The position numbers and the translations under genes are program-made. The notes under the pieces are model-generated. The model was not told the DNA's origin. It ran no database searches and saw only the letters and a program-made list of their open reading frames with translations. A stretch of DNA of 35,422 nucleotides from an uncultured Candidatus Peribacteria bacterium. GTDB lineage: Bacteria; Patescibacteriota; Gracilibacteria; BD1-5; JAGOOR01. Below, piece after piece: positions 8,098 through 29,491 of this stretch. The stretch covers positions 1 to 35,422 of the forward strand of contig CAYVZT010000002.1 of assembly GCA_964456455.1 (NCBI GenBank), written 5' to 3'. Every line of letters starts with the position of its first letter. Position 1 is the stretch's first letter.

Positions 8098-8109
8098 TAA
8101 TTATTTTTC

Positions 8110-9252
8110 ATGAGCAATCAAATCATCATTCTCTCCGAAAAATTTGAAGCACCAAAGTCAAAAATTCAAAAAACATGGTGGGAAGCTATCAATGATGCTA
8201 TTTTGACGAACCAAAAAGTACGACTCAAGGATAAAGTCACTTTTTACCGACTCCTCGCCACGATGGTGAATGCAGGTCTCACTGTCCTCCAAGCCCTGAA
8301 AGTCCTCCGTGATGAACAAAAAAATCCTGTCATGAAAAAAGTGCAGGATGCCATGATACAAGATATTCACTCTGGTCATAATCTCTCTGCAACACTTAAG
8401 ATGTTTCCAAAAAGCTTTTCTGATTCAGAAATAGCGATGATAGAATCGGGTGAAAAAACTGGCAAGCTCAATGTCGCCCTCCTCCAGCTCGCCGTACAAA
8501 TAGAAAAACTCTCTTCTCTTTCAAAGAAACTCATCGGAGCTCTCATATATCCAGCTCTTATCATCTGTGTCATGGTTGGTGTGGTATTTGTACTCATGTG
8601 GCAAGTGGTACCAAAATTGATTGGTATTTTCGCAGATTTTGGAGGCCTTCCCCCAGCGACTCAGATGCTTGTAGCAGCGAGTAATTTTGTCCAAAATTTC
8701 TGGTATCTCTTTTTTATACTTCCTTTTGCTCTCATCAGTTCATGGACAGCATGGAGAAAAACAGAACACGGACGGTATATGACGGATAAATTTCTCCTCA
8801 TGATACCTGGTGTCGGTACACTGTTACAAAAAATCATCGTCTCTCGTTTTGCTCGACTCCTCGCGAGTCTCATGAGTAGTGGAGTCTCTATCGTCGAAGC
8901 TCTCCGAATTATCTCGGGGGCAGTCGGAAATGAAGTGTATCGTCAGCGTATTCTCCTCCTCCGTGATGATGTCACTCGTGGTATCACGATGGGAAAATCC
9001 CTCGAAAACGACCCCCTCTTCCCTGATATGGTTACCCAGATGATCAAAGTAGGAGAAGAAACAGCCAAAATCGACCAAATCATCATCAAAGTAGCAGATT
9101 TTTACGATGAAGAAGTGGATGGTGCCGTGAGTTCCATCAATAAAATCATTGAACCCGTGATCATCGTCACCATGGCGGTATTTGTCGGCCTCATCGCCTA
9201 CGCTATCATGAGTCCTATCATGCAGCTCTCTGACGTGATTAGTCAGCAATAA
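8110..9252 (+). CDS. pilC: Type IV pilus platform protein PilC (GspF family)
   Basis: Two GspF-type repeats with three TM segments. Typical motifs: LATMVNAGLTVLQAL, FARLLASLMSSGVSIVEAL, MIKVGEETAKID. No internal TGA. Confidence 0.9.
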   Translation: MSNQIIILSEKFEAPKSKIQKTWWEAINDAILTNQKVRLKDKVTFYRLLATMVNAGLTVLQALKVLRDEQKNPVMKKVQDAMIQDIHSGHNLSATLKMFPKSFSDSEIAMIESGEKTGKLNVALLQLAVQIEKLSSLSKKLIGALIYPALIICVMVGVVFVLMWQVVPKLIGIFADFGGLPPATQMLVAASNFVQNFWYLFFILPFALISSWTAWRKTEHGRYMTDKFLLMIPGVGTLLQKIIVSRFARLLASLMSSGVSIVEALRIISGAVGNEVYRQRILLLRDDVTRGITMGKSLENDPLFPDMVTQMIKVGEETAKIDQIIIKVADFYDEEVDGAVSSINKIIEPVIIVTMAVFVGLIAYAIMSPIMQLSDVISQQ

Positions 9253-12200: not shown

Positions 12201-12673
12201 TCGTGTACATCTGCAAAATCTACATCTTCAGTACTCTTGGCTGCCAAGAGGCGCTGAGTCAATGGAGTATTTCTCACAACTCATTTTTCGAGCATAAACA
12301 TCTGAAGCAGAAAGAACGGGAGAAATTTCCTTTTGTCATCAATCATTTCCTTCGAGATATGCATGATCATCCTCTCGAGATCAGGGCCATGTTCATCATA
12401 CATTTCCTGCATTTTTGAGCGTGCAAACTCAAACATCATTTTGTAATATGTAGCATAATCTCTATTACTGTTCAAGAGAAATTCCCCTTCCAACCCCTCG
12501 CAGTACGCATACAAATCATCAAAAAGTGTATCAAAAAGTTTTATCTTTTCTGGCTGAGAAATATGGGGGCTCTTTCTATAGGCATTGAGTCGGAGAACCT
12601 TTGGAATATCATCCAAGTTTATTTCCACTATTCTTTTACCTTCTTCTGATCTATTACTGGGCGCGTTTGACAT
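9239..12673 (-). CDS. Large hypothetical protein (1144 aa) with two tandem ~95-aa internal repeats
   Basis: Track ORFs 12281..12673, 11870..12277, 10433..11830, 9698..10021 and 9239..9490 all share one frame. Hand translation of the gaps finds only TGA (7 in total) and no TAA/TAG. ATG at 12673, TAA at 9239-9241. I recognise no family. Confidence 0.7.
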
Positions 12674-12684
12674 AATTGTCTCAT

Positions 12685-12711
12685 ATACTATAAAACATTC
12701 TTATATGTCAA
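12685..12711 (-). promoter_or_regulatory. Candidate sigma-70-type promoter of the 1144-aa ORF
   Basis: On the minus strand, TTGACA (12711-12706), a 15-nt spacer, then TAGTAT (12690-12685), 11 nt before the ATG. Confidence 0.3.
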
Positions 12712-12766
12712 TAAAAAGATGCCACAATAAATAAAGCAAAAAACACTATGGTATCGAGCTTTACTA

Positions 12767-13879
12767 CTAAATCCGAGCAGGTACTTTTTTTCTACTTTTT
12801 TTACGCTTTATTGGATAAGGCCTTTTTGTAGCAAAAATATCTGCAATAGCTCATCGTGTATAGAGTTGCACAACACGTGTTCACGAGCGACCAATTATAG
12901 CAGAGAGCTTTCGCGCCTTGATAAGCTGATCTATCACTCACTTTGATGTTCAAAATACTTTTTCCCAACCCGTGGCTGTATCAACGAGATCTGTCGAGTT
13001 TTCTCTCATATCTGCTCATATCTCTACCCCGTTCGGATCAGTCTTTCCTGCAACAGGAAGCGCAAGCCAATCATCCAAAGATTGGATCACTATGTCTGCC
13101 ACACTCTTGGCTACAATGCCTTGCACTACTCACACAATTTGTGATTCAGAAAACACACTTTGAATCCTCTTATTGGCAACAAAAACTTGTCCAGCAGGTT
13201 CTGCTCCCGCCATATAGGTACGTAGTCACCCGTCACTCATTTGTAGATATTGAGCCCAGCTTGGTATAGTCCCTATTCTCTGTCCTCTATCACCTGTTAG
13301 GTTGGTCAAAACAGGGAGATCCAATGATGTCATTCAGAGAAGATGTTGAAAGGCACTCAGGCGATACACTCGCAAGAATTGCGGAACTCAGACATCAGGT
13401 CTATATTTTGCTATTCGTATCCCCTGTTTATGCTCCAATTCTAGAGCACATCGATCTACGCGAGGCCATGTAATCTCTCCATGCATATTCACAAATCATT
13501 GTCGAGTGATAAATTCTGCCCCGTCAATCACACAAACTTGACGAGCATCAAGCTCTGGAAGTTTTGCCTGTTTGTACAATTTGAGACATGTATCCACTAT
13601 ATCCTTCTCAGAATACAACTCTTGTGTTGGTCTATTGGAGGCATCAAATCATGCAAATTTTGGTAACTCTTTTCCATCTATTTCTCGCAAAAGACTGGTA
13701 TGTGGTATACCATACAATTGTGACCAACTATGAAGAGTAGCATACTGGATACCTTTTTGGTCAAGTGAAAATCCACCACCAGAATATGTGATTTCTCAAT
13801 TCCCTCCTTCTGCACCAGTAGTAGTTGATACCGATTCTGATGCATGTGAATTTAGGCCTGATTCTATCTCATGTAACAT
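12767..13879 (-). CDS. Hypothetical protein with four excisionase/MerR-like (HTH_17-like) repeats and a basic tail
   Basis: 370-codon frame that is open only under table 25 (12 TGAs by hand count, no TAA/TAG); every line was checked by reverse complement. The pattern x-W-x2-(L/V/M)-(Y/F/H)-G-(I/T/E)-x4-(L/V)...K-L...G...(L/V)-(Y/F) recurs four times, e.g. YATLHSWSQLYGIPHTSLLREIDGKELP and TATGWEKVFGTSKGVIDQLIKARKLSAIIG. C-terminus KRKKSRKKVPARI. Missing from the standard-code track. Confidence 0.65.
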
Positions 13880-13935
13880 AAATATTTTAAATATAATAAA
13901 ATATTTATAATAAAGTCAATTTATAAAACCACCGG

Positions 13936-14928
13936 TTAGCTCGAATGAGCAATCTGGATACCACCATTCTGCATAGCTCTCATCACCGAGAGATCATGAC
14001 CGTGTCCGGCTGCAAACACCATAACTGTCCCAACAAATCGAGCTCCACCCTGAAGCGGTATACCATAGGCACCGAGTTTATCGAGGACTTCATGCATGAG
14101 AAGCTCGATATTTATGCCTCGAAAATCATATTCAGAACGAGGGTTTTCGATGCCTTTTTTACCGATAGATACAGTTCTGCTTGAATCAATATTTACTATT
14201 CTTTGAAAGACCGGCAAAGTATCTAGTATTCTCATGAGTTTACGACGAAAACCATAACTCGGAGTACGAGCCCCAGCTATGTAGCGCTGGATGACTTCGT
14301 CATTGATTTTGACTCGTGCCCTCTGAGTACCGATAGCTCCTGGATATGATACCATGACATCGACGATAAGCTCATTTCACCCTTCATCAGGCAATAAAAT
14401 AGCATACGATCATCTCTTATTCTCAAACTCGATTCTTGTTGGCTCTGCAACTGTAAAAGTTTTTCTTTTTCCCACGACAGACGTCTGACTTGGTTGCATC
14501 AGAACATCAGCATATTGCTGAACACAGTCTATCTTAGTGGGGAGCGATACCGAACGAAATGGAAATACTGAACTTCGGAGAATAATGTCTGCATCGATAC
14601 CAAGGCCTGCCAGGAGACCAACAACGTGCTCTAATACCTGCACTCGAGTTCGTCCAACGAGAAGACCAATATTATTTTTTCAAGGACTTACCGCAGAAAT
14701 ATCCAGAACTGTATGCGACTCATCATTAACGCATATTCCCGGCTTTCATGGCTGAGAACATGGAGAAAATCAGAGCTCCAGTGGACGCCTCCAAAACGTC
14801 GTTTGTTCTTGAAATAAAGCAGATTGTTCGAGCATCCTCTCTAGAGCCATGTTTCTACCAGGTTGATTTGTATTATCAAAGATAGGTACTGGGCGCTCTG
14901 GTATGTCTGCGACAGGGGTTATTTTCAT
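13936..14928 (-). CDS. LpxC-fold (UDP-3-O-acyl-GlcNAc deacetylase-like) zinc deacetylase paralog 2
   Basis: Fragments 14410..14643 and 13936..14355 plus upstream sequence join across 5 TGAs. LpxC signature segments: RVQVLEHVVGLLAGLGIDADIIL (compare E. coli [21 protein letters not shown]), AGARTPSYGF (ARTFGF), MHEVLDKLGAYG (HKMLDAIGDL) and AAGHGHDL (KSGHALN). The ATG at 14928 overlaps the end of the upstream paralog; ATG 15018 is an alternative start. Confidence 0.7.
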
Positions 14929-15959
14929 GTGAGAGGTAATATGAGATGTTTCAGTGCTGCCATACGGAAAACATGATTTGTATTCTCAAGAATAATCTTT
15001 CACTGAAAACGAGCTCATGCAAAAAATACCAATACCTCTCCCAATAAATCCAACACATTATGATACAAATGCTCATTTCCCCCAGCTCGAAACTCGGCTC
15101 ACATCATTCCTATAATGTCCTCTGGTGTATGACGATACCGGGCTCTTATGTAGGTCTTGTGGGTCATACCTGAGGATCCGAGATTAAAAAACCATAAGAG
15201 CACCTGAAGAGCAATAGAAAGTGTCAATCTTATAGCGGGCTTTTTATGAGTAGATGAGAGACGCATCATGGCTCTGGCATGCAGAAATTGAGAAATTTCA
15301 TTTTCTCATATTTCAATCGGCATCGAGTTTGGGCAATTTGGCATATCAGGCTGGAGAGCAGACTCGACTCGCACACGAAATTCACTACATGGTTCTATCG
15401 TCATTTTTCTCATTATACCATATTTATCATCGAATAATTCAAAAGCATTTTGACGTGTCACTTCTATGACCCTTCTTGTCTCCTCTTTATCAGAACAGTG
15501 CGGAAGTATTTGCTGCACAAATCACTCAATACCTGGTCAAGTAACTGGAATCCAGTAGGTATTTTTTTTAAATCAAAAAAATGGAAAATGGCTCGATGTG
15601 AGCGGCCCCTTGCAAGATGCGCCGATTTGTATGGTTATACCATTATCCAATCCGATAGCTCTCAAAGCACCGCAGAGATGCTCAAGAAGAAAAATCTGAA
15701 AATCATGCTCTGGAGAACGTAAAACGAGCATTCTGCCGAGACCAGAATCCATTGCCTCAATATGGTTGATACTATACGGTACTTTGACTCATTCAACTTC
15801 GAAAAATATACCCGGCACATCACTCGGAATAATATCAAAATACGCATCTTGTGGAGCAGTAGGGTCAAATGGTCGCCCCCTTACAGTTACTTTCTGTTTT
15901 AGGATTCTTGATGGAGGATTGAGAGATACAGGCAGTGATAAACTTTCTGGTGTATGCAT
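14919..15959 (-). CDS. LpxC-fold zinc deacetylase paralog 1
   Basis: 346-codon frame open under table 25 (9 TGAs); it contains track ORF 15306..15518. Segments FLLEHLCGALRAIGLDNGITIQI, WIPVTGPGIEGFV (compare EIPIMDGSAAPFV), FLHARAMM, LYHNVLDLLGEV and NTNHVFR match the LpxC Zn-ligand and catalytic positions (E-H, H..D, H). TAA at 14919-14921. Confidence 0.75.
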
Positions 15960-16011
15960 GAAAGCAGATTATGTTGATAATTTTATTTTTTCAATAATTA
16001 ATTAAATATAT

Positions 16012-16038
16012 TTGACAATAAAACAATTTATATATTTT
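16012..16038 (+). promoter_or_regulatory. Candidate promoter of the alpha/beta hydrolase gene, near-leaderless geometry
   Basis: TTGACA (16012-16017), a 15-nt spacer, then TATTTT (16033-16038), 6 nt before ATG 16045. Lies in the AT-rich divergent region shared with the LpxC-like operon. Confidence 0.35.
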
Positions 16039-16044
16039 GAAGGC

Positions 16045-16842
16045 ATGAGAAAAACCGTTATCGAAATGAAAAATGACTCTGGTGCACCATCTCAAATTCA
16101 AATCACTGGAACAAATATAAGTAATCTCGTATTTGCACAAGTTTGACTGGGTGAAGTTATAGAAGGACATCAATTTATCAGATCTCTCGAAAAAGAAACT
16201 GAAAAATGAACATTTAGCCTTGCAACCATGAATCATCCACTTCATGCACCTGGCAATATACGAACAGATAGCTCTGAATTCAAGTTAGCACTCTGTCGAG
16301 CATCAACACGACGAGCGTTGCAAAAAATTCTGTGAATTTCCGAAGTAAAAAAAGTAGTGTGAATAGGTTATAGTCTAGGATTCTGGTCTATTTTTCAAGC
16401 ATTGTGCACGATGGATAAAGACCCGAAAATAAAAGGCATTCTCGCCAAATCAGGTATTCATTCATATGAGAGAATCCTTCTCCGATTTTTAGGAAAATAT
16501 GGATACCCTCAAAATAAACCACAAGCATGGGCTCAACTATTTAAAGAATTTCAGATGGACGAAACAAGTTGAATATGACAGATGCCAGTCCTCCCAGATA
16601 ATCCTATACCAATGCATAGAAATTTCTTACGTTGAGCAAGAAATCTGAAAGAACAATCTTGATGTCCATATGATTTAGAATGTTGGCATGGAACATATGA
16701 TCACTGGTCTACACCGGAAGACATAACAACTCTCTCACCAAGAAAAATTCACACATTTGAATTATGACACAGCTTGCGACCAAATAGAGACATAAATCGC
16801 GCCATTTTTGCAGCAGCGGAAAAGATTTTTATAGCAGACTAA
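16045..16842 (+). CDS. Alpha/beta-fold hydrolase (esterase/lipase-like)
   Basis: 265-codon frame open only under table 25 (9 TGAs; checked codon by codon). Nucleophile elbow VV-G-IGYSLGF (GxSxG), acid region WHGTYDHW, catalytic His in FEL-G-HSL. TAA at 16840-16842. Missing from the standard-code track. Confidence 0.75.
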
Positions 16843-17785
16843 TTTTATCACTGAGAACGATACACATCTCCTCGTATCTTGCCCCATATTTTCCAGGAAT
16901 ATAAATACCTGGCTCGATCGTGATCACCATTCCTTCTTGAAGAGTTTCATTAGATTTGGAGGAAATTCCTGGGGCTTCATGAATATCGATACCAACACCA
17001 TGGCCGAGTGAATGAGTGAAATATGTCTCATATTTCCCAAGCATAGTTCGGGATTTTTTGTCTATATCAGCTATCTTCATACCCGGCTTAGCCCAGCGAA
17101 TGATCTCCTGTGTCACATAGGTCACGAGCTCTCCTATGATTCTCGCTTCTTCTGATAGATTTTCTTGATAAACCATTCGTGTCATATCTGAACAATAGCC
17201 ATCATAGATAAGTCACATATCGAGAAGTATGCTCTCTCCTGGTTTTAATGCTCTCTCTGTCGGACTATGATGTGGTATGGCGGAGTGCTCTCCAAAAGCC
17301 ACAATAGGAGGAAAACTCGGACCCGTTGCGCCCTGCTCCAACTGAATAATTTGTATTTTGCGAGCCACCTCTCGCTCAGTCACGCCGACCTGAAGAGATG
17401 GCAAGAGAGACTGGTAGACATTTTTATTTTTCTGCTGTGAGATTCTGAGTTTTTGTATTTCTTCTGGAGTTTTTATGATTCTTTTTTTGGTGATAGGACT
17501 CGCTTTCATGGTGAATTTTGGACCAAATTGTTCGAGTTTTTCTTTGAGTGATATGGTGAGATATTCTGGATCTACCTCGATAGATTCATACTTTTTTAGC
17601 TCGTCTTTCCACTGTCCTCTATCATCTATAATGCGATAATGTTCAGGATCAAATAATCCACTTGTTCGCATATCACAGAAAATAATCGGTTTCGCAGCTG
17701 CCAATAAAATCATAATCTCTCCTACATCATGTGAGCGGACTCCAGTGAGATAGAAAATATCAGATGGTGAGAGAATGAGATGCAT
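16829..17785 (-). CDS. M24 family Xaa-Pro aminopeptidase/dipeptidase
   Basis: Fragments 17213..17863 and 16829..17185 share a frame and join at TGA 17213-17215, giving DM-G-LIYDGYCSDMTR. Metal-ligand motifs HSLGHGVGIDIHE and ITIEPGIY. The likely start is ATG 17785 (MHLILSPSDIFYLTG). Confidence 0.85.
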
Positions 17786-17856
17786 AAAAAATGGAGGAAA
17801 GAGAGTTCTGGAAAGAATAATCGAGCCATTATTTTTTTGAAAAGTCTTCTTTTTTC

Positions 17857-17885
17857 TTGCCAAAATAATAAAAATTGCCTAGAAT
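17857..17885 (+). promoter_or_regulatory. Candidate promoter of the pilin gene
   Basis: TTGCCA (17857-17862), a 17-nt spacer, then TAGAAT (17880-17885), 31 nt upstream of ATG 17917. Confidence 0.5.
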
Positions 17886-17916
17886 ACTCCCGTTTATTAT
17901 ATTTTGTTTCCTTTCT

Positions 17917-18435
17917 ATGAAAAATCAAAAAGGTTTTACACTCGTGGAATTGATGGTCGTACTGGCGATTATTGCTATCCTCGCTACCTCTGGTATCTCT
18001 CAGTATGGTAAATTTATCAAGTCAGCTCGCGACACTACTCGTATCGCTGACCTCGGCGCTATCAATGTCGTCATTCTCGATTCTATCCAGTCGACTGGTA
18101 TAGTCCCTGAAAAGGCATCTGACTTGGCCGACAAAATCAAAGATGTCGCTGGTAAAAAACTGATCGATAAACTCAACGGGACATCCGCATGTCTCAAAAA
18201 AGATGGAACCGTGACACCATGTGGATACAAATATGCTACTTGTGATGGTCGAACAGGATATATCCTGGCTACCACATTTGAAAGCACAAATAATCTGACA
18301 AAGTATGAAAAAGATGATGTCAGTACTTCTGACCCTACTGTGCTCAGCCAAGACCTCTATGAACTCGGTACTTGCAATGCCATCGATGCTGGAGGACCGA
18401 TGACGGTCATATACGACCCGACAGAAAAAGCATAA
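17917..18435 (+). CDS. Type IV pilin (prepilin-type N-terminal cleavage/methylation domain)
   Basis: Class III signal MKNQKG/FTLVELMVVLAIIAILA with Glu at +5. 172 aa. Followed by a terminator. Confidence 0.85.
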   Translation: MKNQKGFTLVELMVVLAIIAILATSGISQYGKFIKSARDTTRIADLGAINVVILDSIQSTGIVPEKASDLADKIKDVAGKKLIDKLNGTSACLKKDGTVTPCGYKYATCDGRTGYILATTFESTNNLTKYEKDDVSTSDPTVLSQDLYELGTCNAIDAGGPMTVIYDPTEKA

Positions 18436-18451
18436 TATCTCTCTAGATTTT

Positions 18452-18477
18452 ATCCCGCCTTTTGGTGGGATTTTTTA
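18452..18477 (+). terminator. Intrinsic terminator after the pilin gene
   Basis: Hairpin atcccgcc/ggtgggat (one G-U pair), loop tttt, then T6. Confidence 0.7.
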
Positions 18478-18550
18478 TGGTTAAATTTTAAATTTGCATT
18501 TTTAAAAAATTATTTATAGTAACGAAAATTATTTATTCAGTAATAATGCT

Positions 18551-18745
18551 ATGAATAGTCATGGGCAAGCATGGACCATCTCTACTATGTGTGGAGAAAA
18601 TTACTACCACAATAACATGGTAGACCCCCCTGAATCTCTCAGAAGAGCTTTTGGCATACCGACGAATTCTACTGTGACCAATATATCATCTCATACATCT
18701 GCGAGCGCAGTCCACCTACTCTTAAAAGAAGAAGAGGGTCAATAA
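18551..18745 (+). CDS. Small ORF (64 aa) or non-coding transcript upstream of valS
   Basis: ATG..TAA ORF between an AT-rich region and a hairpin plus terminator. The composition is not convincingly protein-like. Confidence 0.25.
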   Translation: MNSHGQAWTISTMCGENYYHNNMVDPPESLRRAFGIPTNSTVTNISSHTSASAVHLLLKEEEGQ

Positions 18746-18772
18746 AGACTCACTCATCCTCTTTCATCCCAC

Positions 18773-18803
18773 AAAAATCCGCTTTTTCGAGCGGATTTTT
18801 TTG
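18773..18803 (+). terminator. Intrinsic terminator 58 nt upstream of valS
   Basis: Hairpin atccgc(18777-18782)/gcggat(18791-18796), flanked by an A-run and T7. Confidence 0.7.
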
Positions 18804-18860
18804 CATTTCCTGGACAGACCATAGAATAATCACATTCTCGTTACTTTAAGTCTCTTCACT

Positions 18861-21521
18861 ATGGAATTTCCAAAGGTCTACACCCCCTCTGAATTTGAAT
18901 CCTCTCTTGCCAAAATGTGGGAAGAAAAAGGCCTCTACGCACCACAAAAATCTCGCACAGGGAAAACATTTTATATCCCTCTTCCTCCGCCAAATGTCAC
19001 GGGCGTACTCCATACTGGACACGCTCTCATGCTCGCTCTCCAGGATGTCATGACACGATATCACCGTATGAAGGGCGATGAAACACTCTGGGTGCCTGGG
19101 ACAGATCATGCAGGCATCGCCACACAAAATGTCGTTGCAAAAGCTTTGTCAAAAGATGGCATACGTCGTGAAGAACTCGGGCGCGAAAAATTCGTCGAAA
19201 AAATCTGGGAATGGAAAGAAACTTCTGACAAAACTATCACCGATCAGATGCGCATGATGGGAGCAAGTGTTTCGTGGGATCATGAGCGTTTTACTCTCGA
19301 TGAAGCAAATAATAAGCTCGTCACCGATACATTTATAAAGCTCTACAATGATGGAATCATCTACCGTGGAGAATACATGGTCAACTACTGTCCGAAAGAT
19401 AAAACCGTTATCTCAAAATCAGAAATCGAATACCGAGAAGAGGCAGGATTTTTGTATGAAATCGCATACTTTGTCTCTGGAGCTGACAAAGAACTCATCG
19501 TCGCGACTACTCGTCCTGAGACACTCCTCGCCGATCAGGCTATCGCTGTTCATCCAAAGGATAAACGCTACAAAAAACTCATCGGTAAAACGGCTATCCT
19601 CCCCATCGCAAACAGAAAAATCCCCATCATCGCTGACGAGATGGTCGATATGGATTTTGGTACTGGTGCGGTAAAGATCACTCCTGCACACGACCCAAAC
19701 GATTTTGAAACAGGCAAACGACACAATCTCCCCCTCGATTATCGTGTCCTCGATAACAATGGTGTGATGATGAAGCACACAGGTGACTTCGCAGGAAAAA
19801 AAGAGATGGAAGCACGTGAGATGATGATCGAGATGCTTCGTGCACGAGGCAATCTCATGAAGGTCACTCCTCACACATCTCAGGTTGGATACTCTGAGCG
19901 TGGTGGTGTCCGTGTACAGACTATCGTCTCGACACAGTGGTTCGTCGATAGCAAAAAACTCGCAGAAAAAGTCATGGCTGGTTGGGCAAAAAAAGAATTC
20001 GAGATTATCCCCTCTCGCTATGGTGAGATATTTGAAACCCTCATGAGCAATCTCCACGAATGGTGTATCAGTCGTCAGCTCTGGTGGGGTCATCAGATAC
20101 CAGCCTACTATGACAAAGAAGGGAATCTCCTCGGTGTCACAGATGATCCGAGCAAACTCATAAAAAAATATGGTGCAGAAAATGTCGTCCGCGATGAAGA
20201 TGTCCTCGATACTTGGTTCTCTTCCGCTCTCTGGCCTTTCTCTGTCCTCGACTGGACTTTTGACGAACCTGGGAAACTGTTTAAGAAATTTTATCCAGCA
20301 CAAGTCCTCGAAACTGGTCATGATATCCTCCTTTTTTGGGTCGTGAGGATGCTCCTCTTTGGGTATGGTCTCACAGGTCAGACACCATTTAAGACGGTGT
20401 ATCTCCATGGTCTCGTGACCGATGATCAGGGTAGGAAATTCTCCAAATCTCTCGGAAATGGTATCGATCCGATAGAAGTCATCAAACAGTATTCTGCCGA
20501 TGCGCTTCGATTGTCTCTCATCGTCGGAAATACTCCTGGGAATCCATTTCGATTTTCTCTCGACCTCGTAAAAAATAATCAGACATTTCTGAATAAGCTC
20601 TGGAATGTAGCACGATTTGTCTGGATGAATGTCGGAGGAGAAAAGAAAATCGAAGTCGATACTGATGTCTCAAAGCTCGAAAAAACACTCACGAAAAACT
20701 GGAGCAAACTCCTCGACTACGAGCGATGGATACTCACGAGACTCAAGAGAACAAATCTCGATGTGACTCGCGGTATGGAAGAATATGATTTCTCTATGAT
20801 GGGAGAAAAACTCATGTCATTTACTCGTGATGAATTCGCGGATTATGCTATCGAGTGTTTCAAGCTCTCAAAAGACGAATCAAAATATGGAAAAGAAGTC
20901 ATGATGTATACCCTCCTGACACTGCTCAAGCTCTGGCATCCCTATATCCCATTTGTCACCGAGGCACTCTCAGGCATCCTCGTACCAAAAAAGACGATTA
21001 TCGATGCCGAGTGGCCAGAGTGTCCGTTTGAGATCGATACAGAAAGTGAAGAACTGATCAAATCGGTCTTCGAAGTCGTGAAAACTATCCGCACTATCCG
21101 TGGAGATCGAAAGATTAAGCCAGGAGAAGCAGTCGGCGTCGTCATCTATGCGAATCCTCGTGATCGTGCTGTCCTCGAGCGAAATATCGCCCTCATCGCT
21201 GGTCTCGGAAAAGCGAGTGAAGTCGAGTTTACCCTCACAAAAGACGGTCTTTCTCGAGAAAAATACACCTATGGTATGGCTGGAGAAATCGAGGTCTTCG
21301 TCGATACGAGTGCTTGTAGCCATGACGATGATATCGAGCGTCTCGAAAAACTCATCGCAGAAAAAGAGGACTATGTACGAACTCTCGAAATAAAACTCAT
21401 GGATCCTACTTTCGTGAATAAAGCACCAGAAAATGTCATCCGTCTCACGCAAGAAAAGAAAGAAGTGACACTCCGACAAATCGAGAAGGCACGGGAGGAA
21501 TTAAAGCAGTATAAGGGATAG
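18861..21521 (+). CDS. valS: Valine--tRNA ligase
   Basis: 886-aa uninterrupted ORF. HIGH region PNVTGVLHTGHAL, KMSKS region KFSKSLGN, C-terminal coiled coil. No in-frame TGA. Confidence 0.97.
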   Translation: MEFPKVYTPSEFESSLAKMWEEKGLYAPQKSRTGKTFYIPLPPPNVTGVLHTGHALMLALQDVMTRYHRMKGDETLWVPGTDHAGIATQNVVAKALSKDGIRREELGREKFVEKIWEWKETSDKTITDQMRMMGASVSWDHERFTLDEANNKLVTDTFIKLYNDGIIYRGEYMVNYCPKDKTVISKSEIEYREEAGFLYEIAYFVSGADKELIVATTRPETLLADQAIAVHPKDKRYKKLIGKTAILPIANRKIPIIADEMVDMDFGTGAVKITPAHDPNDFETGKRHNLPLDYRVLDNNGVMMKHTGDFAGKKEMEAREMMIEMLRARGNLMKVTPHTSQVGYSERGGVRVQTIVSTQWFVDSKKLAEKVMAGWAKKEFEIIPSRYGEIFETLMSNLHEWCISRQLWWGHQIPAYYDKEGNLLGVTDDPSKLIKKYGAENVVRDEDVLDTWFSSALWPFSVLDWTFDEPGKLFKKFYPAQVLETGHDILLFWVVRMLLFGYGLTGQTPFKTVYLHGLVTDDQGRKFSKSLGNGIDPIEVIKQYSADALRLSLIVGNTPGNPFRFSLDLVKNNQTFLNKLWNVARFVWMNVGGEKKIEVDTDVSKLEKTLTKNWSKLLDYERWILTRLKRTNLDVTRGMEEYDFSMMGEKLMSFTRDEFADYAIECFKLSKDESKYGKEVMMYTLLTLLKLWHPYIPFVTEALSGILVPKKTIIDAEWPECPFEIDTESEELIKSVFEVVKTIRTIRGDRKIKPGEAVGVVIYANPRDRAVLERNIALIAGLGKASEVEFTLTKDGLSREKYTYGMAGEIEVFVDTSACSHDDDIERLEKLIAEKEDYVRTLEIKLMDPTFVNKAPENVIRLTQEKKEVTLRQIEKAREELKQYKG

Positions 21522-26850: not shown

Positions 26851-27513
26851 CTATTTCTTCCGTATTTCGAGTATCCATCGTTCTTGTTCTGCGAGATGAT
26901 ATGTGAGGGCTTTGGTGAGTATCATGCCTCGATTTTTAGCCAGTTGCTGTCCGTCAGCCCATTCTTCTTCTGAGGCTTGTTTATAGATCCACGCTCGACC
27001 ATCCGTTTTGAGCAGAGGTTTTATCCAGGTAAAGAGATCTTCGATATAGGCAGCTGCTCGTGTCACGACGAGATCATAGTGATCGCTCGTTGATGGAGTA
27101 CCATCGAGAAATACTATTCCATTTTTATTGTGTTTTCTCTCTTCTTTCATCGTGGCAGAAGTCATATCTTCGACTCTTCCCCACTGTGGTGTGACATTCG
27201 TGAGCCCGAGTGATGTTGCGAATTCTCTGACGCAGTCGACTTTTTTTCGGGTAGCATCGAGGAGAGTGAAGTGATGTTGTGGGAGCATCGTCGCTAGCGG
27301 TAATCATGGGAATCATCCACCAGTACCCAGATCGAGAATCTTTAATTTTCGATCACCGAACTGTTCAAAAAGCGGCAACGTCACAAGACTATCCTCAATA
27401 TGCTTCACCCAAACCCCCTCTTCATCACGAATAGCAGAGAGATTGATGTGAGTATTTTTTTCAAGGAAAATCGAGACGAGCTTCTGAAGTTGTGAGTTTT
27501 CTCGGTAGGACAT
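26851..27513 (-). CDS. rsmG: 16S rRNA (guanine527-N7)-methyltransferase
   Basis: Fragments 27313..27513 and 26851..27288 share a frame. The junction reads ILDLGTGG-G-FP-G-LPLA, with both inserted Gly residues encoded by TGA (27313-27315, 27304-27306). Confidence 0.9.
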
Positions 27514-27548: not shown

Positions 27549-27944
27549 TTATTCAAAAATTACCCTGCCACATTCACGGTGAATTATTTTCCCTGCTTGC
27601 TTATCAAAATGCCACAAAGTATCTTCTTGCTTGTTTATCGATATATCTCTCGGGCGGCTACACTGACATGGCAGATAATGAATATGTGTCCCTATGGATC
27701 GTGAGCTGTGACCAGAGCGTACCATACGAATGCACTCTACGTGCACGAGATCCTTCTGTCTTTTTGATATTTCTACAGTATGTATACAAGAAAGTACGTT
27801 TCCCGATGCAGTGAATTTTTCGTGAAAAAATCAACATTTACCGCCTAAAACAGTACATGTTTTATCGGCAAAAGCATGACAACATTGTATGCTATCTGGA
27901 GGAGAATATTGGTAGGAGAATGGTGAACTGATAATTTCTGGCAT
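27549..27944 (-). CDS. Cys/His-rich small protein (131 aa), unknown function
   Basis: Extends track ORF 27549..27746 upstream across one TGA to ATG 27944. Contains 10 Cys and many His. The segment THIHYLPCQCSRPRD resembles the JAMM HxHx7Sx2D motif but does not match it. Confidence 0.55.
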
Positions 27945-27963
27945 ATATAAAAACGTAAAAAAT

Positions 27964-28081
27964 AAAAAACCTCTCCATTTCTGGAGAGGCAAAAAGAAAT
28001 AATAGACACTTCTTAACTGACTCTCCGATGAAAGGAAAGGAGAGTGAGAAGGAGTGAAGTATTATATATCATTTGAAGCAT
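27964..28081 (-). promoter_or_regulatory. Module copy 1: Leu-rich mini-ORF, four pairing segments and an intrinsic terminator
   Basis: On the minus strand, ATG 28081 to TAA 28015-28013 encodes MLQMIYNTSLLLTLLSFHRRVS. Segments: seg1 CTTTCC (28039-28034), seg2 GGAGAG (28026-28021), seg3 CCTCTCC (27989-27983), seg4 GGAGAGG (27976-27970), then T6. The module ends 20 nt before the ATG of the Cys/His-rich gene. Confidence 0.5.
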
Positions 28082-28087
28082 GGTTCT

Positions 28088-28372
28088 TTAAATAATGTTT
28101 CATGTAAGTCTCATAAATTGACCATCGATGAGCAATTCCGTTTCGGCAAATTCCGATGACGAAAGGATCTGAACTATTCAAAAATGGATTTTATGACGAA
28201 TGCTATCTGCTAATTTTATACATCGAGGAGCAAATCATGACTGATGTATGATGGCAAAAATCTGTCCTGGAAACTGATTTTGTAGAGAAAGAGCAAGTTC
28301 TCGAGCTGATATAGGTGCTGCTGGTATATATATCTGATCCTGATGTTCAGATGGAATAGAAAGTGATGACAT
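28088..28372 (-). CDS. Small hypothetical protein (94 aa)
   Basis: ATG 28372 to TAA 28088-28090, with 3 TGAs. Same orientation as the flanking terminators. The antisense frame is also open under table 25, so confidence is limited. Confidence 0.4.
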
Positions 28373-28465
28373 AAAAAAATAATAAAAAAATAAAATTTTA
28401 TAGAGATCGCACGAATACCAGCGGACGATAGAGCAGAAAAAAGAAAGTAAACATAAATGAAAAAT

Positions 28466-28578
28466 AAAAAACCTCTCCAGTGACGGAGAGGCGAAAAAGA
28501 AATACTAGATACTTCTTAACTGACTCTCCGATGAAAGGAAAGAAGAAGCACGACGAGAAGTGAGAAAACGAGAAACAT
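28466..28578 (-). promoter_or_regulatory. Module copy 2: Leu-rich mini-ORF, four pairing segments and an intrinsic terminator
   Basis: On the minus strand, ATG 28578 (2 nt after the upstream gene's TAA) to TAA 28518-28516 encodes MFLVFSLLVVLLLSFHRRVS. Segments: seg1 CTTTCC (28542-28537), seg2 GGAGAG (28529-28524), seg3 CCTCTCC (28491-28485), seg4 GGAGAGG (28478-28472), then a T-run. Confidence 0.5.
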
Positions 28579-28580
28579 AA

Positions 28581-28856
28581 TTATGCATTAATAAAACCAT
28601 GCCCTCTCCACTTTTGTTCAGGATCATACCAGGCACGTAGAGCAGTGCAGGGGTATGTATTCAGAGATCAATTTGCAGTACGTCTTACTCACAATTCTTG
28701 CCATTCTCGTACAAAAAGACACTGCTGTCATAAAAGCTTGCAAACTCCATCTTGCACAAAGGGGCATACTATGGTGCCATCCCGAAAAACATATCATGAT
28801 CTCGTTCTATCCTCGGTAATAGTTGGTAACATTGGTGGCATACCCACTTCAGACAT
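28581..28856 (-). CDS. Small hypothetical protein (91 aa, 4 Cys)
   Basis: ATG 28856 to TAA 28581-28583, with 4 TGAs. The competing plus-strand ORF 28645..28860 looks less protein-like. Confidence 0.4.
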
Positions 28857-28885
28857 ATAAGTTAATCAAGACATAATTTTGAGAT

Positions 28886-29000
28886 AAAAAAACTCCCCCT
28901 GTTTGGGAGAGTGGAAAGTGCGTGATTTTTCTTCGCAACAAACTTACTCTCCCGTAGGGGAAAGAAGAAGCACGAGAAGGAGTGAACTTGTTTGACGCAT
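28886..29000 (-). promoter_or_regulatory. Module copy 3 (diverged): Leu-rich mini-ORF, compensated pairing segments and a terminator
   Basis: On the minus strand, ATG 29000 to TAA 28946-28944 encodes MRQTSSLLLVLLLSPTGE. Segments: seg1 CTTTCCC (28964-28958), seg2 GGGAGAG (28953-28947), seg3 CTCTCCC (28911-28905), seg4 GGGAG within 28898-28893, then T6. Confidence 0.5.
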
Positions 29001-29006
29001 GGAGGT

Positions 29007-29033
29007 ATTATACGGACAGTGAATATTTGTCAA
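29007..29033 (-). promoter_or_regulatory. Consensus-like promoter driving module copy 3, with leaderless geometry
   Basis: On the minus strand, TTGACA (29033-29028), a 15-nt spacer, then TATAAT (29012-29007). Only 6 nt (acctcc) separate the -10 element from ATG 29000. Confidence 0.45.
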
Positions 29034-29035
29034 AA

Positions 29036-29491
29036 TTAAACCACGACACCGAGTATCAATTCGCGTAGATTATTATATATACTTTCTTCTGGGAGTTCAC
29101 GTATCTCTTTGAGAGTTTTCCAGTCATAATCTGCTATCTCTGATGCTTGGGGTACGATATTGCCAGCGACGACATGAGCCAAGAAAAACTCTTCATATTT
29201 TCTCTGTGGTCCTCGATCATTTGTGTATTCTATTGTTTGGACACGTACTGGGGCTGGGAGCGTAGTGATATTTGGCTCCTGACAGAGAGTAATCATGCCT
29301 ATCAATTCGACTGTGAGTCCGAGCTCTTCTTTTGCTTCACGTATCATCGCCTGTTGAAATGTCTCCCCCGCTTCTACATGACCACCTGGGAGAGTCCATG
29401 GTTTATGTTGAGCATGTTTTACGAGGAGTATACGACCTTCTCTGTCGGTGATGATACCTCGTGCCGAAAATTGAAGAGGAAGTACTTTCAT
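29036..29491 (-). CDS. NUDIX hydrolase
   Basis: Nudix box GGHVEAGETFQQAMIREAKEELGL. 151 aa. Confidence 0.9.
   Translation of the reverse strand: MKVLPLQFSARGIITDREGRILLVKHAQHKPWTLPGGHVEAGETFQQAMIREAKEELGLTVELIGMITLCQEPNITTLPAPVRVQTIEYTNDRGPQRKYEEFFLAHVVAGNIVPQASEIADYDWKTLKEIRELPEESIYNNLRELILGVVV

What the first reader, a model, noticed from the sequence alone, without database searches (positions are those of the whole stretch)
27955..29035. Three tandem copies of a ~100-nt module: Leu-rich mini-ORF, four mutually exclusive pairing segments and a terminator, each placed in front of a small gene
On the minus strand, three consecutive intergenic regions carry the same module. They lie after the NUDIX gene, after the 91-aa ORF and after the 94-aa ORF. 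Equivalently, they lie just upstream of the 91-aa, 94-aa and 131-aa Cys/His-rich ORFs.

(a) Mini-ORF. Each copy has a mini-ORF of 18-22 codons: MLQMIYNTSLLLTLLSFHRRVS, MFLVFSLLVVLLLSFHRRVS and MRQTSSLLLVLLLSPTGE. Each contains 5-6 Leu codons (CTC/CTT) within 8-9 codons. The length difference between copy 1 and copies 2/3 is exactly one codon, which argues for coding constraint.

(b) Pairing segments.
- seg1 is CTTTCC and overlaps the last Leu/Ser codons.
- seg2 is GGAGAG and lies inside the ORF, 6 nt before its TAA in copies 1 and 2.
- seg3 is CCTCTCC and seg4 is GGAGAGG followed by a T-run; together they form the terminator.
- seg2 is complementary to both seg1 and seg3.

(c) Covariation. In the diverged copy 3 all the segments change together (CTTTCCC / GGGAGAG / CTCTCCC / GGGAG), so the three-way complementarity is kept.

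This is the textbook geometry of ribosome-mediated attenuation as in the leu and trp leaders. A ribosome stalled on the Leu codons would mask seg1, which favours 2:3 pairing and read-through. A ribosome that reaches the stop would mask seg2, which favours the 3:4 terminator. Here, however, the modules control small Cys-rich genes of unknown function, in an organism type not expected to make leucine.

An alternative reading is that the peptides are Ibs-like type I toxins. E. coli Ibs peptides are 18-19-aa hydrophobic peptides found in tandemly repeated SIB loci, with sequences such as ...VLLLISF.... Copy 3 also has a consensus TTGACA-N15-TATAAT promoter that would give a leaderless mini-ORF.

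I am not aware of a described RNA family with this sequence.
Basis: partly seen in the sequence, partly recalled or inferred. Interest (0 to 1): 0.85.

Follow-up and report, generated by a model that had tools for sequence, protein, structure and literature searches.

The report
Three serial leucine leader-peptide attenuators
Three copies of a short RNA switch, each with a tiny leucine-rich reading frame and a transcription stop signal, most likely let this Gracilibacteria-type bacterium turn on three small unknown genes when leucine runs short; it is the classic attenuation mechanism, apparently not yet described in this reduced-genome group.

Summary
On the minus strand, three about 115-nt modules (28885-29000, 28465-28578, 27963-28072) each carry a Leu-run mini-ORF, complementary segments 1-4 and an intrinsic terminator. 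Each precedes a real small gene once TGA is read as Gly (code 25).

The attenuation reading is supported by comparison. The module recurs in about 20 Gracilibacteria/'Peribacteria' genomes with conserved mini-ORF geometry. In relatives it precedes isopropylmalate-synthase-like genes. Sister leaders on the same design carry Ile runs before citramalate-synthase-like genes, Thr/Lys codons before aspartate-semialdehyde dehydrogenase, and (one case) a Met run before a SAM hydrolase.

Co-transcriptional folding predicts antitermination only while a ribosome sits at or before the regulatory codons.

Copy 3 has its own promoter and a leaderless mini-ORF. The mini-ORFs of copies 2 and 1 start 2 and 6 nt after the upstream gene's stop, so the three probably act in series.

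The Ibs-like toxin alternative is rejected. There is no Rfam match at threshold, and I found no literature for this group. It is a new member of a known kind. No expression data exist, and the cargo function is unknown.

The parts
29036..29491 (-). NUDIX hydrolase gene, the upstream neighbour and a conserved synteny anchor
   Evidence: PF00293, E = 2.5e-21. Homologs at 56-89% identity served as handles to reach related loci.
29007..29033 (-). Promoter-like site of copy 3 (type A): TTGACA (29033-29028), 15-nt spacer, TATAAT (29012-29007). It ends 6 nt before the ATG, which implies a leaderless mini-ORF.
   Evidence: Read directly from the sequence. TTGACA-N15-TAnnnT followed by 6-7 nt and ATG is present in 15 of 15 type-A leaders.
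28944..29000 (-). Mini-ORF of copy 3: MRQTSSLLLVLLLSPTGE plus TAA. Leu codons at 28982-28962, seg1 CTTTCCC at 28964-28958, seg2 GGGAGAG at 28953-28947, immediately before the stop.
   Evidence: Orthologs: MRQISSLLLNLLLSHRES, MRPSQSLLLSLLLSHRES and MRQSQSLLLALLLSPLGRGS.
28885..28912 (-). Terminator of copy 3: 5' arm ACTCTCCC (28912-28905), 3' arm GGGGGAGT (28899-28892), then the T-run (28891-28885). A second CU block, ACTTTCC, lies directly 5' of it.
28581..28856 (-). ORF91: small protein with 4 Cys and four in-frame TGA (Gly) codons. Cargo of copy 3.
   Evidence: Family members of 68-97 aa follow type-A leaders in 9 further loci. 30% identity to the ORF in L014. Coding-type substitution pattern against L127. 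No Pfam match.
28516..28578 (-). Mini-ORF of copy 2 (type B): MFLVFSLLVVLLLSFHRRVS plus TAA. Its ATG lies 2 nt after the ORF91 stop. Seg1 CTTTCC at 28542-28537, seg2 GGAGAG at 28529-28524.
28465..28492 (-). Terminator of copy 2: GCCTCTCC / GGAGAGGT plus T-run
28088..28372 (-). ORF94: small protein with three in-frame TGA codons. Cargo of copy 2.
   Evidence: Orthologs follow type-B leaders in L074 and L109. P0080 and P0081 are 63-65% identical. No Pfam or PDB sequence match.
28013..28081 (-). Mini-ORF of copy 1 (type B): MLQMIYNTSLLLTLLSFHRRVS plus TAA. Its ATG lies 6 nt after the ORF94 stop. Leu codons at 28054-28037, seg1 CTTTCC at 28039-28034, seg2 GGAGAG at 28026-28021.
27963..27990 (-). 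Terminator of copy 1: GCCTCTCCA / TGGAGAGGT plus T-run
27549..27944 (-). ORF131: Cys/His-rich protein (9 Cys, 9 His). Cargo of copy 1.
   Evidence: Orthologs follow type-B or B' leaders in L024, L088, L109, L078 and L127. Only 2 clusters among 5.8 billion proteins. Coding-type substitution pattern.
26851..27513 (-). rsmG/gidB, the downstream neighbour and a conserved synteny anchor. No terminator was found between ORF131 and it.
   Evidence: GidB Pfam hits on the public gene calls; translation.

Best explanation
Each module is most likely a ribosome-mediated (leader-peptide) transcription attenuator that senses charged tRNA-Leu.

How one module works:
- RNA polymerase transcribes the leader while a ribosome translates the 18-22-codon mini-ORF.
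- When Leu-tRNA is plentiful, the ribosome runs through the Leu codons to the stop, which lies 0-5 nt after seg2. There it covers seg2, so seg3 pairs with seg4, the terminator forms and transcription ends at the T-run.
- When Leu-tRNA is scarce, the ribosome stalls on the CTT/CTC run. This covers seg1 and leaves seg2 free. Seg2 captures seg3, the terminator's 5' arm, before seg4 is made, and polymerase reads on into the cargo gene.
- With no ribosome at all, 1:2 and 3:4 form in type-A leaders, which terminates transcription.

How the three fit together:
- Copy 3 has its own promoter, ending 6 nt before the ATG, so its mini-ORF is probably translated from a leaderless mRNA.
- Copies 2 and 1 have no promoter. 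Their ATGs lie 2 and 6 nt after the stops of ORF91 and ORF94, so they are probably translated by ribosomes that have just finished the upstream gene.
- The locus would then be one transcription unit with three attenuators in series. ORF91, ORF94 and ORF131 would need one, two and three read-through events, which gives a graded response with a progressively sharper threshold.

Shown in silico: the anatomy, its conservation, the match between codon run and cargo, and the folding behaviour.

Inferred: translation of the mini-ORFs, leaderless and coupled initiation, actual termination and read-through, and the series logic.
For: 1. Conservation found without using the mini-ORF. A scan on stems alone recovered Leu-run mini-ORFs ending at seg2 in about 20 Gracilibacteria/'Peribacteria' MAGs and almost nowhere else.
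2. Synteny-based orthologs, reached through NUDIX or ORF131 and so independent of the RNA, carry the module in L013, L014, L015 and L127.
3. Constant geometry. From the last Leu codon to seg2 is 7-12 nt, and from seg2 to the stop is 0-5 nt, in 27 of 27 copies. The promoter is present in 15 of 15 type-A copies.
4. Coding signature. Of 171 Leu codons, 167 are CTT or CTC. The codon between the two Leu triplets varies freely: V, S, N, A. CTT is a minor codon in the window's genes, at 15% of Leu codons, but makes up 70% in the leaders.
5. The codon run matches the cargo. Leu leaders precede IPMS-like enzymes (171-246 bits, the best-scoring family). Ile leaders precede a citramalate-synthase-like enzyme (149.5 against 65 bits). 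Thr/Lys leaders precede Asd (379.6 bits against a cut-off of 223). One Met leader precedes a SAM hydrolase.
6. Stem changes. The Ile class changes the partner of the codon run from AAGAAG to AUAGAAAUAAU. Class B' has GCCCUCC/GGAGGGC arms, with seg2 GAGGGAG in L078. Class TK1 has GAGAGGG/CCCUCUC/GAGAGGG.
7. Folding with seg4 not yet made and the ribosome stalled. Seg2 captures the 5' arm in 28 of 28 copies, with mean ddG about -10 kcal/mol. The sliding footprint puts the switch 1-3 codons after the run in all classes. Shuffling only the seg2 region places the real leaders in the lowest 0-8% of shuffles for 12 of 14.
8. Weak Rfam similarity is only to terminator-type leaders (Phe_leader, PyrG_leader).
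Against: - There are no transcript, Term-seq or ribosome data, so termination, read-through and translation are unproven.
- At full-length equilibrium with seg1 masked, the terminator still forms in most copies. Seg2 then pairs with a CU block (ACUUUCC) just 5' of the terminator. The switch therefore has to be kinetic, as I recall it is for the E. coli trp leader.
- For loci found with my stem pattern, seg2:seg3 complementarity was imposed by the search, so that evidence is circular. Only about 14 leaders in 5 classes are independent of it.
- The per-leader shuffle statistics are modest. Most values lie between 0.00 and 0.08, and one is 0.21.
- In several type-B copies the antiterminator is the minimum-free-energy fold even without a ribosome.
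- There is no Shine-Dalgarno sequence before any mini-ORF.
- The window's own cargo (ORF91, ORF94, ORF131) has no known link to leucine.
- Diversity within each class is low, so no formal covariation test such as R-scape was possible.
Confidence: 0.8

Rival explanations
1. The element is an RNA-only attenuator or riboswitch-like switch. The mini-ORF is not translated. A protein or small molecule binds the CU-rich 5' half and releases seg2 to act as the antiterminator. The 'Leu codons' are a by-product of CU-rich pairing with GA-rich segments.
For: The CU-rich and GA-rich segments account for much of the complementarity on composition alone; shuffled seg2 regions still give -2 to -6 kcal/mol. 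No mini-ORF has a Shine-Dalgarno sequence. CTT-to-CTC changes are also tolerated by pairing with G.
Against: The ATG, the frame and the stop position are conserved in 27 of 27 copies despite indels. The same design carries AUU/AUA (Ile) and ACA/AAG (Thr/Lys) runs, which are not CU-rich, and their cargo matches the amino acid. The codon between the Leu triplets is free to vary while the Leu codons change only synonymously. The promoter-to-ATG spacing of 6-7 nt is fixed, which makes sense for leaderless translation. No riboswitch family matches.
Confidence: 0.07
2. The mini-ORFs encode functional hydrophobic peptides. They would be Ibs-like type I toxins or other small membrane proteins, in repeated loci, with the hairpins acting as ordinary terminators.
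For: The loci are repeated. Leader peptides that act in trans do exist (peTrpL, PMC7298713).
Against: The hydrophobic core is only 7-9 residues, and its central residue can be N or S. Sister leaders on the same scaffold encode polar, charged peptides such as FTTKTPK and TSTTKKPPK. No antisense RNA signature was found: there is no plus-strand terminator in the modules, and promoter-like sites are below the chance level, 4 against 8.8. The only conserved peptide features are the codon run and the residues encoded by seg1 and seg2. The codon run tracks the function of the cargo.
Confidence: 0.04
3. The modules are simply the intergenic ends (terminators plus flanking repeat) of duplicated small-gene cassettes. 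They have no conditional behaviour and are constitutive terminators between independently transcribed genes.
For: The leader-plus-small-gene units come and go between genomes like cassettes: L127 lacks the ORF94 unit, while L109 has all three. At full-length equilibrium the terminator is the stable state.
Against: No promoter is seen downstream of any terminator in front of the cargo genes. The cargo ATGs lie only about 15-25 nt after the T-runs in copies 1 and 3. A plain terminator would not need a conserved in-frame mini-ORF whose stop sits next to a segment complementary to the terminator's 5' arm, in five classes with different stems.
Confidence: 0.06

Closest known systems
Enterobacterial leu operon leader (leuL; Rfam Leu_leader RF00512) and the classic trp, his, thr, phe and ilv leader-peptide attenuators
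   Same: A short leader ORF with a run of codons for the regulating amino acid. Mutually exclusive 1:2, 2:3 and 3:4 pairings ending in an intrinsic terminator. In relatives, control of an isopropylmalate-synthase-type gene. General theory in PMC1183508.
   Different: No detectable sequence or structure homology: no Leu_leader match even at E <= 10, and the best sub-threshold matches are Phe_leader at 27.6 bits (cut-off 55) and PyrG_leader at 26.8 bits (cut-off 65). The mini-ORF has no Shine-Dalgarno sequence and is either leaderless or placed 2-14 nt after an upstream stop. It has 5-13 Leu codons, mostly CTT. In this window the cargo is three small Cys/His-rich proteins of unknown function rather than a biosynthetic operon. 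There are three attenuators in series within one locus.
Leader-peptide attenuators of leuA and other genes outside Proteobacteria: Actinobacteria (PMC1262725) and the Leu-rich attenuator peptide of the Staphylococcus aureus ilv-leu operon (PMC5794164)
   Same: A Leu-codon leader peptide upstream of branched-chain amino-acid genes in non-proteobacterial lineages, predicted or tested to act by attenuation.
   Different: A different phylum (Gracilibacteria, code 25), an unrelated sequence, serial internal copies, and non-biosynthetic cargo.
Polycysteine-encoding leaderless short ORFs of mycobacteria (bioRxiv 10.1101/834739)
   Same: A leaderless short ORF at the 5' end of an operon, with a run of codons for one amino acid, that acts as an amino-acid-responsive attenuator of downstream genes.
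   Different: I did not read the mechanism of that system in detail. The present elements have an explicit intrinsic terminator and an antiterminator. Leaderless initiation here is inferred only from the promoter spacing.
T-box leaders specific for tRNA-Leu
   Same: The same physiological signal (tRNA-Leu charging) and the same output (terminator or antiterminator).
   Different: T-boxes bind uncharged tRNA directly, are about 200 nt long and need no translation. No T-box match was found in Rfam. Here the sensor is the translating ribosome.
Ibs/Sib type I toxin-antitoxin loci of E. coli
   Same: Repeated loci that encode 18-19-aa hydrophobic peptides.
   Different: No antisense RNA signature. 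The peptide content changes to polar Thr/Lys or to Ile in sister elements, in step with the cargo function. The ORF is embedded in a terminator/antiterminator switch.

Membership tests
Ribosome-mediated (leader-peptide) transcription attenuators (mechanistic class) | A short leader ORF with a start and stop codon upstream of the regulated gene | tested here: met
   ATG...TAA/TAG ORFs of 18-29 codons in 27 of 27 Leu-type copies, with a conserved position relative to the RNA segments.
Ribosome-mediated (leader-peptide) transcription attenuators (mechanistic class) | A run of regulatory codons for the amino acid to which the regulated genes relate | tested here: inconclusive
   Met in relatives: Leu with IPMS-like, Ile with CimA-like, Thr/Lys with Asd, Met with a SAM hydrolase. 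The window's own cargo (ORF91, ORF94, ORF131) has no known link to leucine.
Ribosome-mediated (leader-peptide) transcription attenuators (mechanistic class) | Mutually exclusive protector (1:2), antiterminator (2:3) and terminator (3:4) pairings, with a T-run | tested here: met
   Predicted folds. Terminators found by the scan. The 2:3 capture exceeds the seg2-shuffle controls in 12 of 14 independent leaders. In silico only.
Ribosome-mediated (leader-peptide) transcription attenuators (mechanistic class) | Geometry in which a ribosome on the regulatory codons masks seg1 but not seg2, and a ribosome at the stop masks seg2 | tested here: met
   Sliding A-site footprint: the antiterminator is predicted up to 1-3 codons after the run and the terminator beyond that, in all classes. 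The distances are given.
Ribosome-mediated (leader-peptide) transcription attenuators (mechanistic class) | Premature termination in vivo that is relieved by starvation for the cognate amino acid | not testable with these tools
   No transcriptome, Term-seq or Ribo-seq data were available.
Rfam Leu_leader (RF00512) and other curated leader families | A covariance-model score at or above the family's gathering threshold | tested here: not met
   No family reaches its gathering score in the window. At E <= 10 the only leader matches are Phe_leader at 27.6 against 55 and PyrG_leader at 26.8 and 21.4 against 65. Leu_leader does not match.
PyrG leader (reiterative-transcription attenuator) | A 5' GGGC start and a CTP-sensitive poly-G extension that pairs with the terminator's 5' arm; no leader ORF | tested here: not met
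   The sub-threshold hit covers only the terminator and its A/U-rich flank. The model's 5' GGGCUC aligns to GAGUCA.
Type I toxin-antitoxin (Ibs/Sib-like) | A cis-encoded antisense RNA overlapping the toxin ORF | tested here: not met
   No plus-strand terminator lies within the modules. Promoter-like sites number 4 against 8.8 expected. These are simple consensus scans only.
Type I toxin-antitoxin (Ibs/Sib-like) | A conserved hydrophobic, membrane-active peptide | tested here: not met
   The core is 7-9 residues with a variable, sometimes polar centre. Sister elements encode polar Thr/Lys peptides. Toxicity itself was not testable.
HMGL-like synthase pseudogene remnants (as an explanation for the small ORFs) | Residual similarity of the 1.5-kb region to the IPMS-like genes of relatives | tested here: not met
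   tblastn with code 25 gives no hit better than E = 1.9 in the region or anywhere in the window.

The most novel reading that the evidence does not exclude
Gracilibacteria may use a modular family of leader-peptide attenuators as a general system for sensing amino-acid supply. The family shares one RNA design and is re-coded for Leu, Ile, Thr/Lys and perhaps Met, plus a 'non-run' class whose signal is unknown. In the Leu branch it would drive a graded starvation programme through three attenuators in series, rather than a biosynthetic pathway. The outputs would be tiny, lineage-specific Cys/His-rich proteins (ORF91, ORF94, ORF131) that act on the cell's own physiology or on its host to restore leucine supply.
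Probability: 0.3. Interest if true: 0.8.

Novelty: new member of a known kind. Interest (0 to 1): 0.6.

Why it matters
Patescibacteria (the CPR) are described as lacking amino-acid biosynthesis and depending on hosts (PMC11665869). Almost nothing is known about how they sense nutrients or regulate genes.

If these elements work as proposed, they would matter in four ways:
1. They would be the first leader-peptide attenuators reported for this radiation, as far as Rfam 15 and the searchable literature show.
2. They would show that tRNA charging is read out by translation-coupled termination in a code-25 organism.
3. They label, from sequence alone, the genes that respond to Leu, Ile or Thr/Lys shortage. 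These include lone IPMS-like and citramalate-synthase-like enzymes and three families of unknown small proteins, which makes the function of those genes testable.
4. They offer a native, compact, amino-acid-responsive expression switch for a group that has no inducible genetic tools.

The mechanism itself is textbook, which limits the surprise.

Tried and rejected
1. Rfam, at gathering and permissive thresholds: no family fits.
2. The small ORFs as decayed leuA fragments: rejected, because tblastn with code 25 finds nothing.
3. Full-length equilibrium folding with seg1 masked as a test of the switch: uninformative. The terminator persists because seg2 pairs with a CU block upstream of it. I replaced it with co-transcriptional folds.
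4. A fixed 13-nt seg2 window for duplex statistics: it cut off part of seg2 in types B and B', so the results were uneven. I replaced it with shuffles of the seg2 region inside the full fold.
5. Column-wise covariation counting on the model-made alignment: abandoned. Types A and B are offset by one column in the 3' arm, and the RNAalifold consensus kept only 7 pairs.
6. A protein-guided metagenome scan with the ORF131 family: only one extra locus, L127.
7. Homolog searches for ORF131 and ORF94: 2 clusters each.
8. Structure prediction:
   - The models of the database homologs were poor, with pLDDT 34.7 and 50.9.
   - The fold search gave only weak thioredoxin-fold matches (E >= 0.03), which I do not rely on.
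9. The PyrG-type reiterative-transcription idea prompted by the Rfam hit: rejected, because the match covers only the terminator.
10. The Ibs-like toxin reading: rejected (see the rival explanations).
11. My first automatic choice of stall codon for the Thr/Lys leaders masked seg2 and gave false negatives. This was corrected by scanning all codon positions.
Full report
**Context.** The window reads as a genome in which TGA is a sense codon. Recoding TGA raises the residues in ORFs of at least 100 aa from 7,693 to 20,057. In the cargo genes, TGA columns align with TGA or GGN Gly codons in relatives in 10 of 13 cases. The closest named relatives are Candidatus Gracilibacteria MAGs, some labelled 'Peribacteria'. 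So the code is 25. The finding lies on the minus strand between a NUDIX hydrolase gene (29036-29491; PF00293) and rsmG/gidB (26851-27513). Public gene calls for the same contig, which split genes such as gidB and so appear to read TGA as stop, leave this 1.5-kb interval empty.

**Check of the observation.** The three modules exist as described.
- Each has a CU-rich seg1, a GA-rich seg2 at the end of the ORF, and a hairpin followed by a T-run.
- The hairpins are called as terminators: 7 terminator-like sites in 3 kb against 1.9 expected.
- Each copy folds better than its dinucleotide shuffles (z = -5.6, -3.9, -2.1).
- A covariance model built later finds exactly three copies in the window: 105, 83 and 80 bits at 28885-29000, 28465-28578 and 27963-28072.
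- A separate scan for a terminator with an upstream mini-ORF finds no others.

Corrections:
- The copies are separated by genes, with spacing of 421 and 502-503 nt.
- Seg2 ends 5 nt, not 6 nt, before the stop in copies 1 and 2.
- Copy 3 differs in kind from copies 1 and 2 (see 'Two subtypes' below).

**The downstream ORFs are real genes.**
- Under code 25 they are 91, 94 and 131 aa long.
- None has a Pfam or PDB sequence match.
- All three have orthologs in the same position in other genomes.
- Codon alignments show the coding signature. Differences at codon positions 1/2/3 are 46/29/67 for ORF131, 24/11/29 for ORF91, and 29/14/42 and 9/5/26 for ORF94, with many synonymous changes.
- They are not remnants of a leuA-like gene.

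**Related loci.**
- Through NUDIX homologs I fetched five syntenic loci. Three of them (L013, L014, L015) carry the module directly after NUDIX, with mini-ORFs MRPSQSLLLSLLLSHRES, MRQSQSLLLALLLSPLGRGS and MRQISSLLLNLLLSHRES.
- In L015 and L013 the next gene is a 451- or 589-aa HMGL-family enzyme. Its best NCBIfam matches are 2-isopropylmalate synthases, at 246 and 171 bits, below the equivalog cut-offs.
- A scan of 185,579 species genomes used a pattern that fixes only seg2, seg3, seg4 and the T-run. It returned 111 stretches. Among them, Leu-run mini-ORFs ending at seg2 occur almost only in Gracilibacteria/'Peribacteria' MAGs, often as pairs 340-380 nt apart.
- The covariance model added copies that the pattern had missed: L071:1362, which precedes a 451-aa IPMS-like gene; L109:1212; and L078:942, which has 13 consecutive Leu codons.
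- L109 reproduces the window's layout: A, ORF91-like, B, ORF94-like, B', ORF131-like.
- L127, found through the ORF131 protein, lacks the ORF94 unit. The 'leader plus small gene' units therefore behave as cassettes.

**Two subtypes.**
- Type A includes copy 3. All 15 type-A copies have TTGACA-N15-TAnnnT ending 6-7 nt before the ATG. The distance from the last Leu codon to seg2 is 7-9 nt, and from seg2 to the stop 0-4 nt. This promoter-to-ATG spacing implies a leaderless mini-ORF. That is an inference.
- Type B includes copies 2 and 1. The 12 type-B copies have no promoter. In most, the ATG lies 2-14 nt after the stop of the upstream small gene (2 nt and 6 nt in the window). Seg2 ends 5 nt before the stop. 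This suggests translational coupling, which is also an inference.

**Evidence that the mini-ORF is read as codons.**
- Of 171 Leu codons in the leaders, 120 are CTT and 47 are CTC. In the window's long genes CTT makes up 15% of Leu codons and CTC 51%.
- The codon between the two Leu triplets varies freely: GTG, AGC, AAC, GCT, GCC.
- Most telling, the same design carries other codon runs, and the cargo changes with them:
  - Ile runs (MYAKNIIISIIILS..., MYTKNIIIAIIILS...) precede an HMGL enzyme whose best match is citramalate synthase (149.5 bits, against about 65 for IPMS).
  - Thr/Lys-rich leaders, MQINFTTKTPKLLTSRG followed in tandem by MSHHLSLITSTTKKPPKRGG, precede aspartate-semialdehyde dehydrogenase (379.6 bits against a cut-off of 223) or a weakly aspartokinase-like protein.
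  - One Met-run leader (…NMMMMLF) precedes a SAM hydroxide adenosyltransferase/SAM hydrolase.

**Structure.**
- With no ribosome, type-A leaders fold into a long 1:2 hairpin plus the terminator. In the 1:2 hairpin the Leu codons pair with AAGAA(G), and CUUUCCC pairs with GGGAGAG.
- In the Ile class the partner of the codon run changes from AAGAAG to AUAGAAAUAAU.
- Class B' has terminator arms GCCCUCC/GGAGGGC, with seg2 GAGGGAG in L078.
- Class TK1 has GAGAGGG/CCCUCUC/GAGAGGG.
- At full-length equilibrium with seg1 masked, the terminator persists, because seg2 pairs with a CU block (ACUUUCC) just upstream of it. This does not argue against attenuation. As I recall, 3:4 is also the more stable pairing in the E. 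coli trp leader, and the antiterminator wins by forming first.
- In the co-transcriptional situation (seg4 not yet made, ribosome stalled on the last regulatory codon), seg2 captures the terminator's 5' arm in 28 of 28 copies, with a mean gain of about 10 kcal/mol. With no ribosome the arm is free in 17 of 28 copies, mostly type A.
- I slid the ribosome's A-site over every codon. The antiterminator is predicted up to 1-3 codons after the last regulatory codon and the terminator beyond that, in the Leu, Ile, Thr/Lys and Met leaders alike.
- Caveat: for loci found with my pattern, 2:3 complementarity was imposed by the search. I therefore took 14 leaders found independently of the pattern, in five stem classes, and shuffled only the 18 nt before the stop. 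The real sequences lie in the lowest 0-8% of shuffles for 12 of 14, and at 5% and 21% for the two TK2 leaders. Each test is modest. The consistency across classes is the argument.

**Mechanism.** The anatomy, the conservation, the match between codon run and cargo, and the folding all fit classical ribosome-mediated attenuation sensing tRNA-Leu charging.
- Copy 3 opens the unit from its own promoter.
- Read-through allows translation of ORF91.
- Ribosomes that finish ORF91 start mini-ORF 2 two nucleotides later, and the same happens after ORF94.
- ORF91, ORF94 and ORF131 would then need one, two and three read-through events.
- No terminator follows ORF131, so some read-through into rsmG is possible. 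This was not resolved.

**Rivals.**
- An untranslated CU-binding switch is hard to reconcile with the Ile and Thr/Lys versions and with the fixed ORF geometry.
- Ibs-like toxins are unlikely. The peptide core is short and variable, sister peptides are polar, and no antisense signature is seen.
- Plain terminators on duplicated cassettes do not explain the mini-ORF and seg2 geometry that is conserved across classes.

**Comparison with what is known.**
- No Rfam 15 family reaches threshold. The only weak matches are to terminator-type leaders.
- Literature searches found no paper that combines Gracilibacteria, Patescibacteria or the CPR with transcription attenuation, nor Gracilibacteria with isopropylmalate synthase. 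'Leader peptide' occurs once each in two CPR papers that I did not read.
- Leader-peptide attenuators are known in Proteobacteria, in Actinobacteria (PMC1262725) and in Staphylococcus (PMC5794164). Leaderless codon-run sORF attenuators are known in mycobacteria (bioRxiv 10.1101/834739).
- This is therefore a new family, in a new lineage, of a well-known kind. Its notable features are the leaderless and stop-adjacent mini-ORFs, the three attenuators in series, and the unknown small cargo proteins.
- It is of added interest because Patescibacteria are described as lacking amino-acid biosynthesis (PMC11665869).

**Limits.**
- There are no expression data.
- Diversity within each class is low.
- The function of the cargo is unknown. 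Structure models were too poor to use.
- I could not inspect whole genomes for the remaining Leu or Ile pathway genes.

Noticed in passing
whole window (for example the in-frame TGA codons in 28581-28856, 28088-28372 and 27549-27944): The genome uses TGA as a sense codon, most likely Gly (code 25). Recoding nearly triples the residues in long ORFs, and TGA aligns with TGA or GGN in orthologs in 10 of 13 columns. Public gene calls for the same contig, which appear to read TGA as stop, break or miss many genes.
   Followed up: yes
L001:2449-2561 (minus strand); same genome as the window, about 1.5 kb beyond window position 35422: A fourth attenuator-like leader with no codon run (MHHSLSHIAAKVNLHSQGE) precedes a 111-aa unknown protein whose ATG overlaps the terminator's T-run. 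The same class occurs in L074, L086, L124, L107, L103 and L056. What it senses is unexplained.
   Followed up: partly
L015:6206-6462, L013:6591-6873, L078:2825-3089, L088:3393-3652 (minus strand), and the end of L127 after rsmG: Two tandem Thr/Lys-rich leaders (MQINFTTKTPKLLTSRG, then MSHHLSLITSTTKKPPKRGG), each with its own terminator. They precede aspartate-semialdehyde dehydrogenase or an aspartokinase-like gene. They lie just after rsmG in relatives, and the window has different genes at that position.
   Followed up: partly
L048:1305-1433 (minus), L084:838-965 (minus), L123:6200-6317: Ile-run leaders on the same RNA design (IIISIIIL). Two of them precede citramalate-synthase-like HMGL enzymes.
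   Followed up: partly
L023:971-1089: A single leader with four consecutive Met codons (MTHFSATTRNMMMMLF) precedes a SAM hydroxide adenosyltransferase/SAM hydrolase, an enzyme that releases methionine. Only one instance was seen.
   Followed up: partly
L064:3443-3558 and L067:6906-7042 (minus): Possible leaders in other CPR lineages. In a 'Patescibacteria group' MAG, a mini-ORF with two His codons plus a terminator precedes HisI (PF01502, 102.8 bits). In a Saccharibacteria MAG there is a Leu-run mini-ORF (MINKSNLLLGLLLTT...) whose cargo is unclear.
   Followed up: no
L032, L041, L096, L125 (Lentimicrobiaceae and Sulfidibacterium MAGs): Mini-ORFs of the form M..RHIIISFVVLIGNSL lie upstream of the same stem pattern. 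They are probably Ile/Val-type leaders of Bacteroidota.
   Followed up: no
About 20 Bacillus cereus-group loci (for example L017, L018, L022, L027): All match the stem pattern with a span of the same length (74 nt) and mostly have no mini-ORF. This looks like an unrelated conserved element that shares GGAGAG...CTCTCC...GGAGAG-T5.
   Followed up: no
window 28581-28856 and 27549-27944; L024, L071, L078, L088 and L109 cargo genes: The core of the ORF91 family and the N-terminus of the ORF131 family share a motif, C-x-[HF]-x(4-6)-C-x3-G-x2-C-x-[FY]. This suggests a common small Cys-rich (metal-binding?) module.
   Followed up: no
window 29007-29033 and 14 orthologous sites: The type-A promoter has a 15-nt spacer between TTGACA and TAnnnT in 15 of 15 copies, shorter than the canonical 17 nt. 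The standard promoter scan, which allows 16-18 nt, therefore misses it.
   Followed up: partly
L013:4125-5894, L015:4127-5482, L071:~1488-2843, L056:6632 onward: The IPMS-like genes under the Leu leaders are lone genes; in L013 and L015 they are followed directly by gidB. They come in at least three divergent forms (451, 456+ and 589 aa; 30% identity between two of them). No leuB, leuC or leuD was seen nearby.
   Followed up: partly
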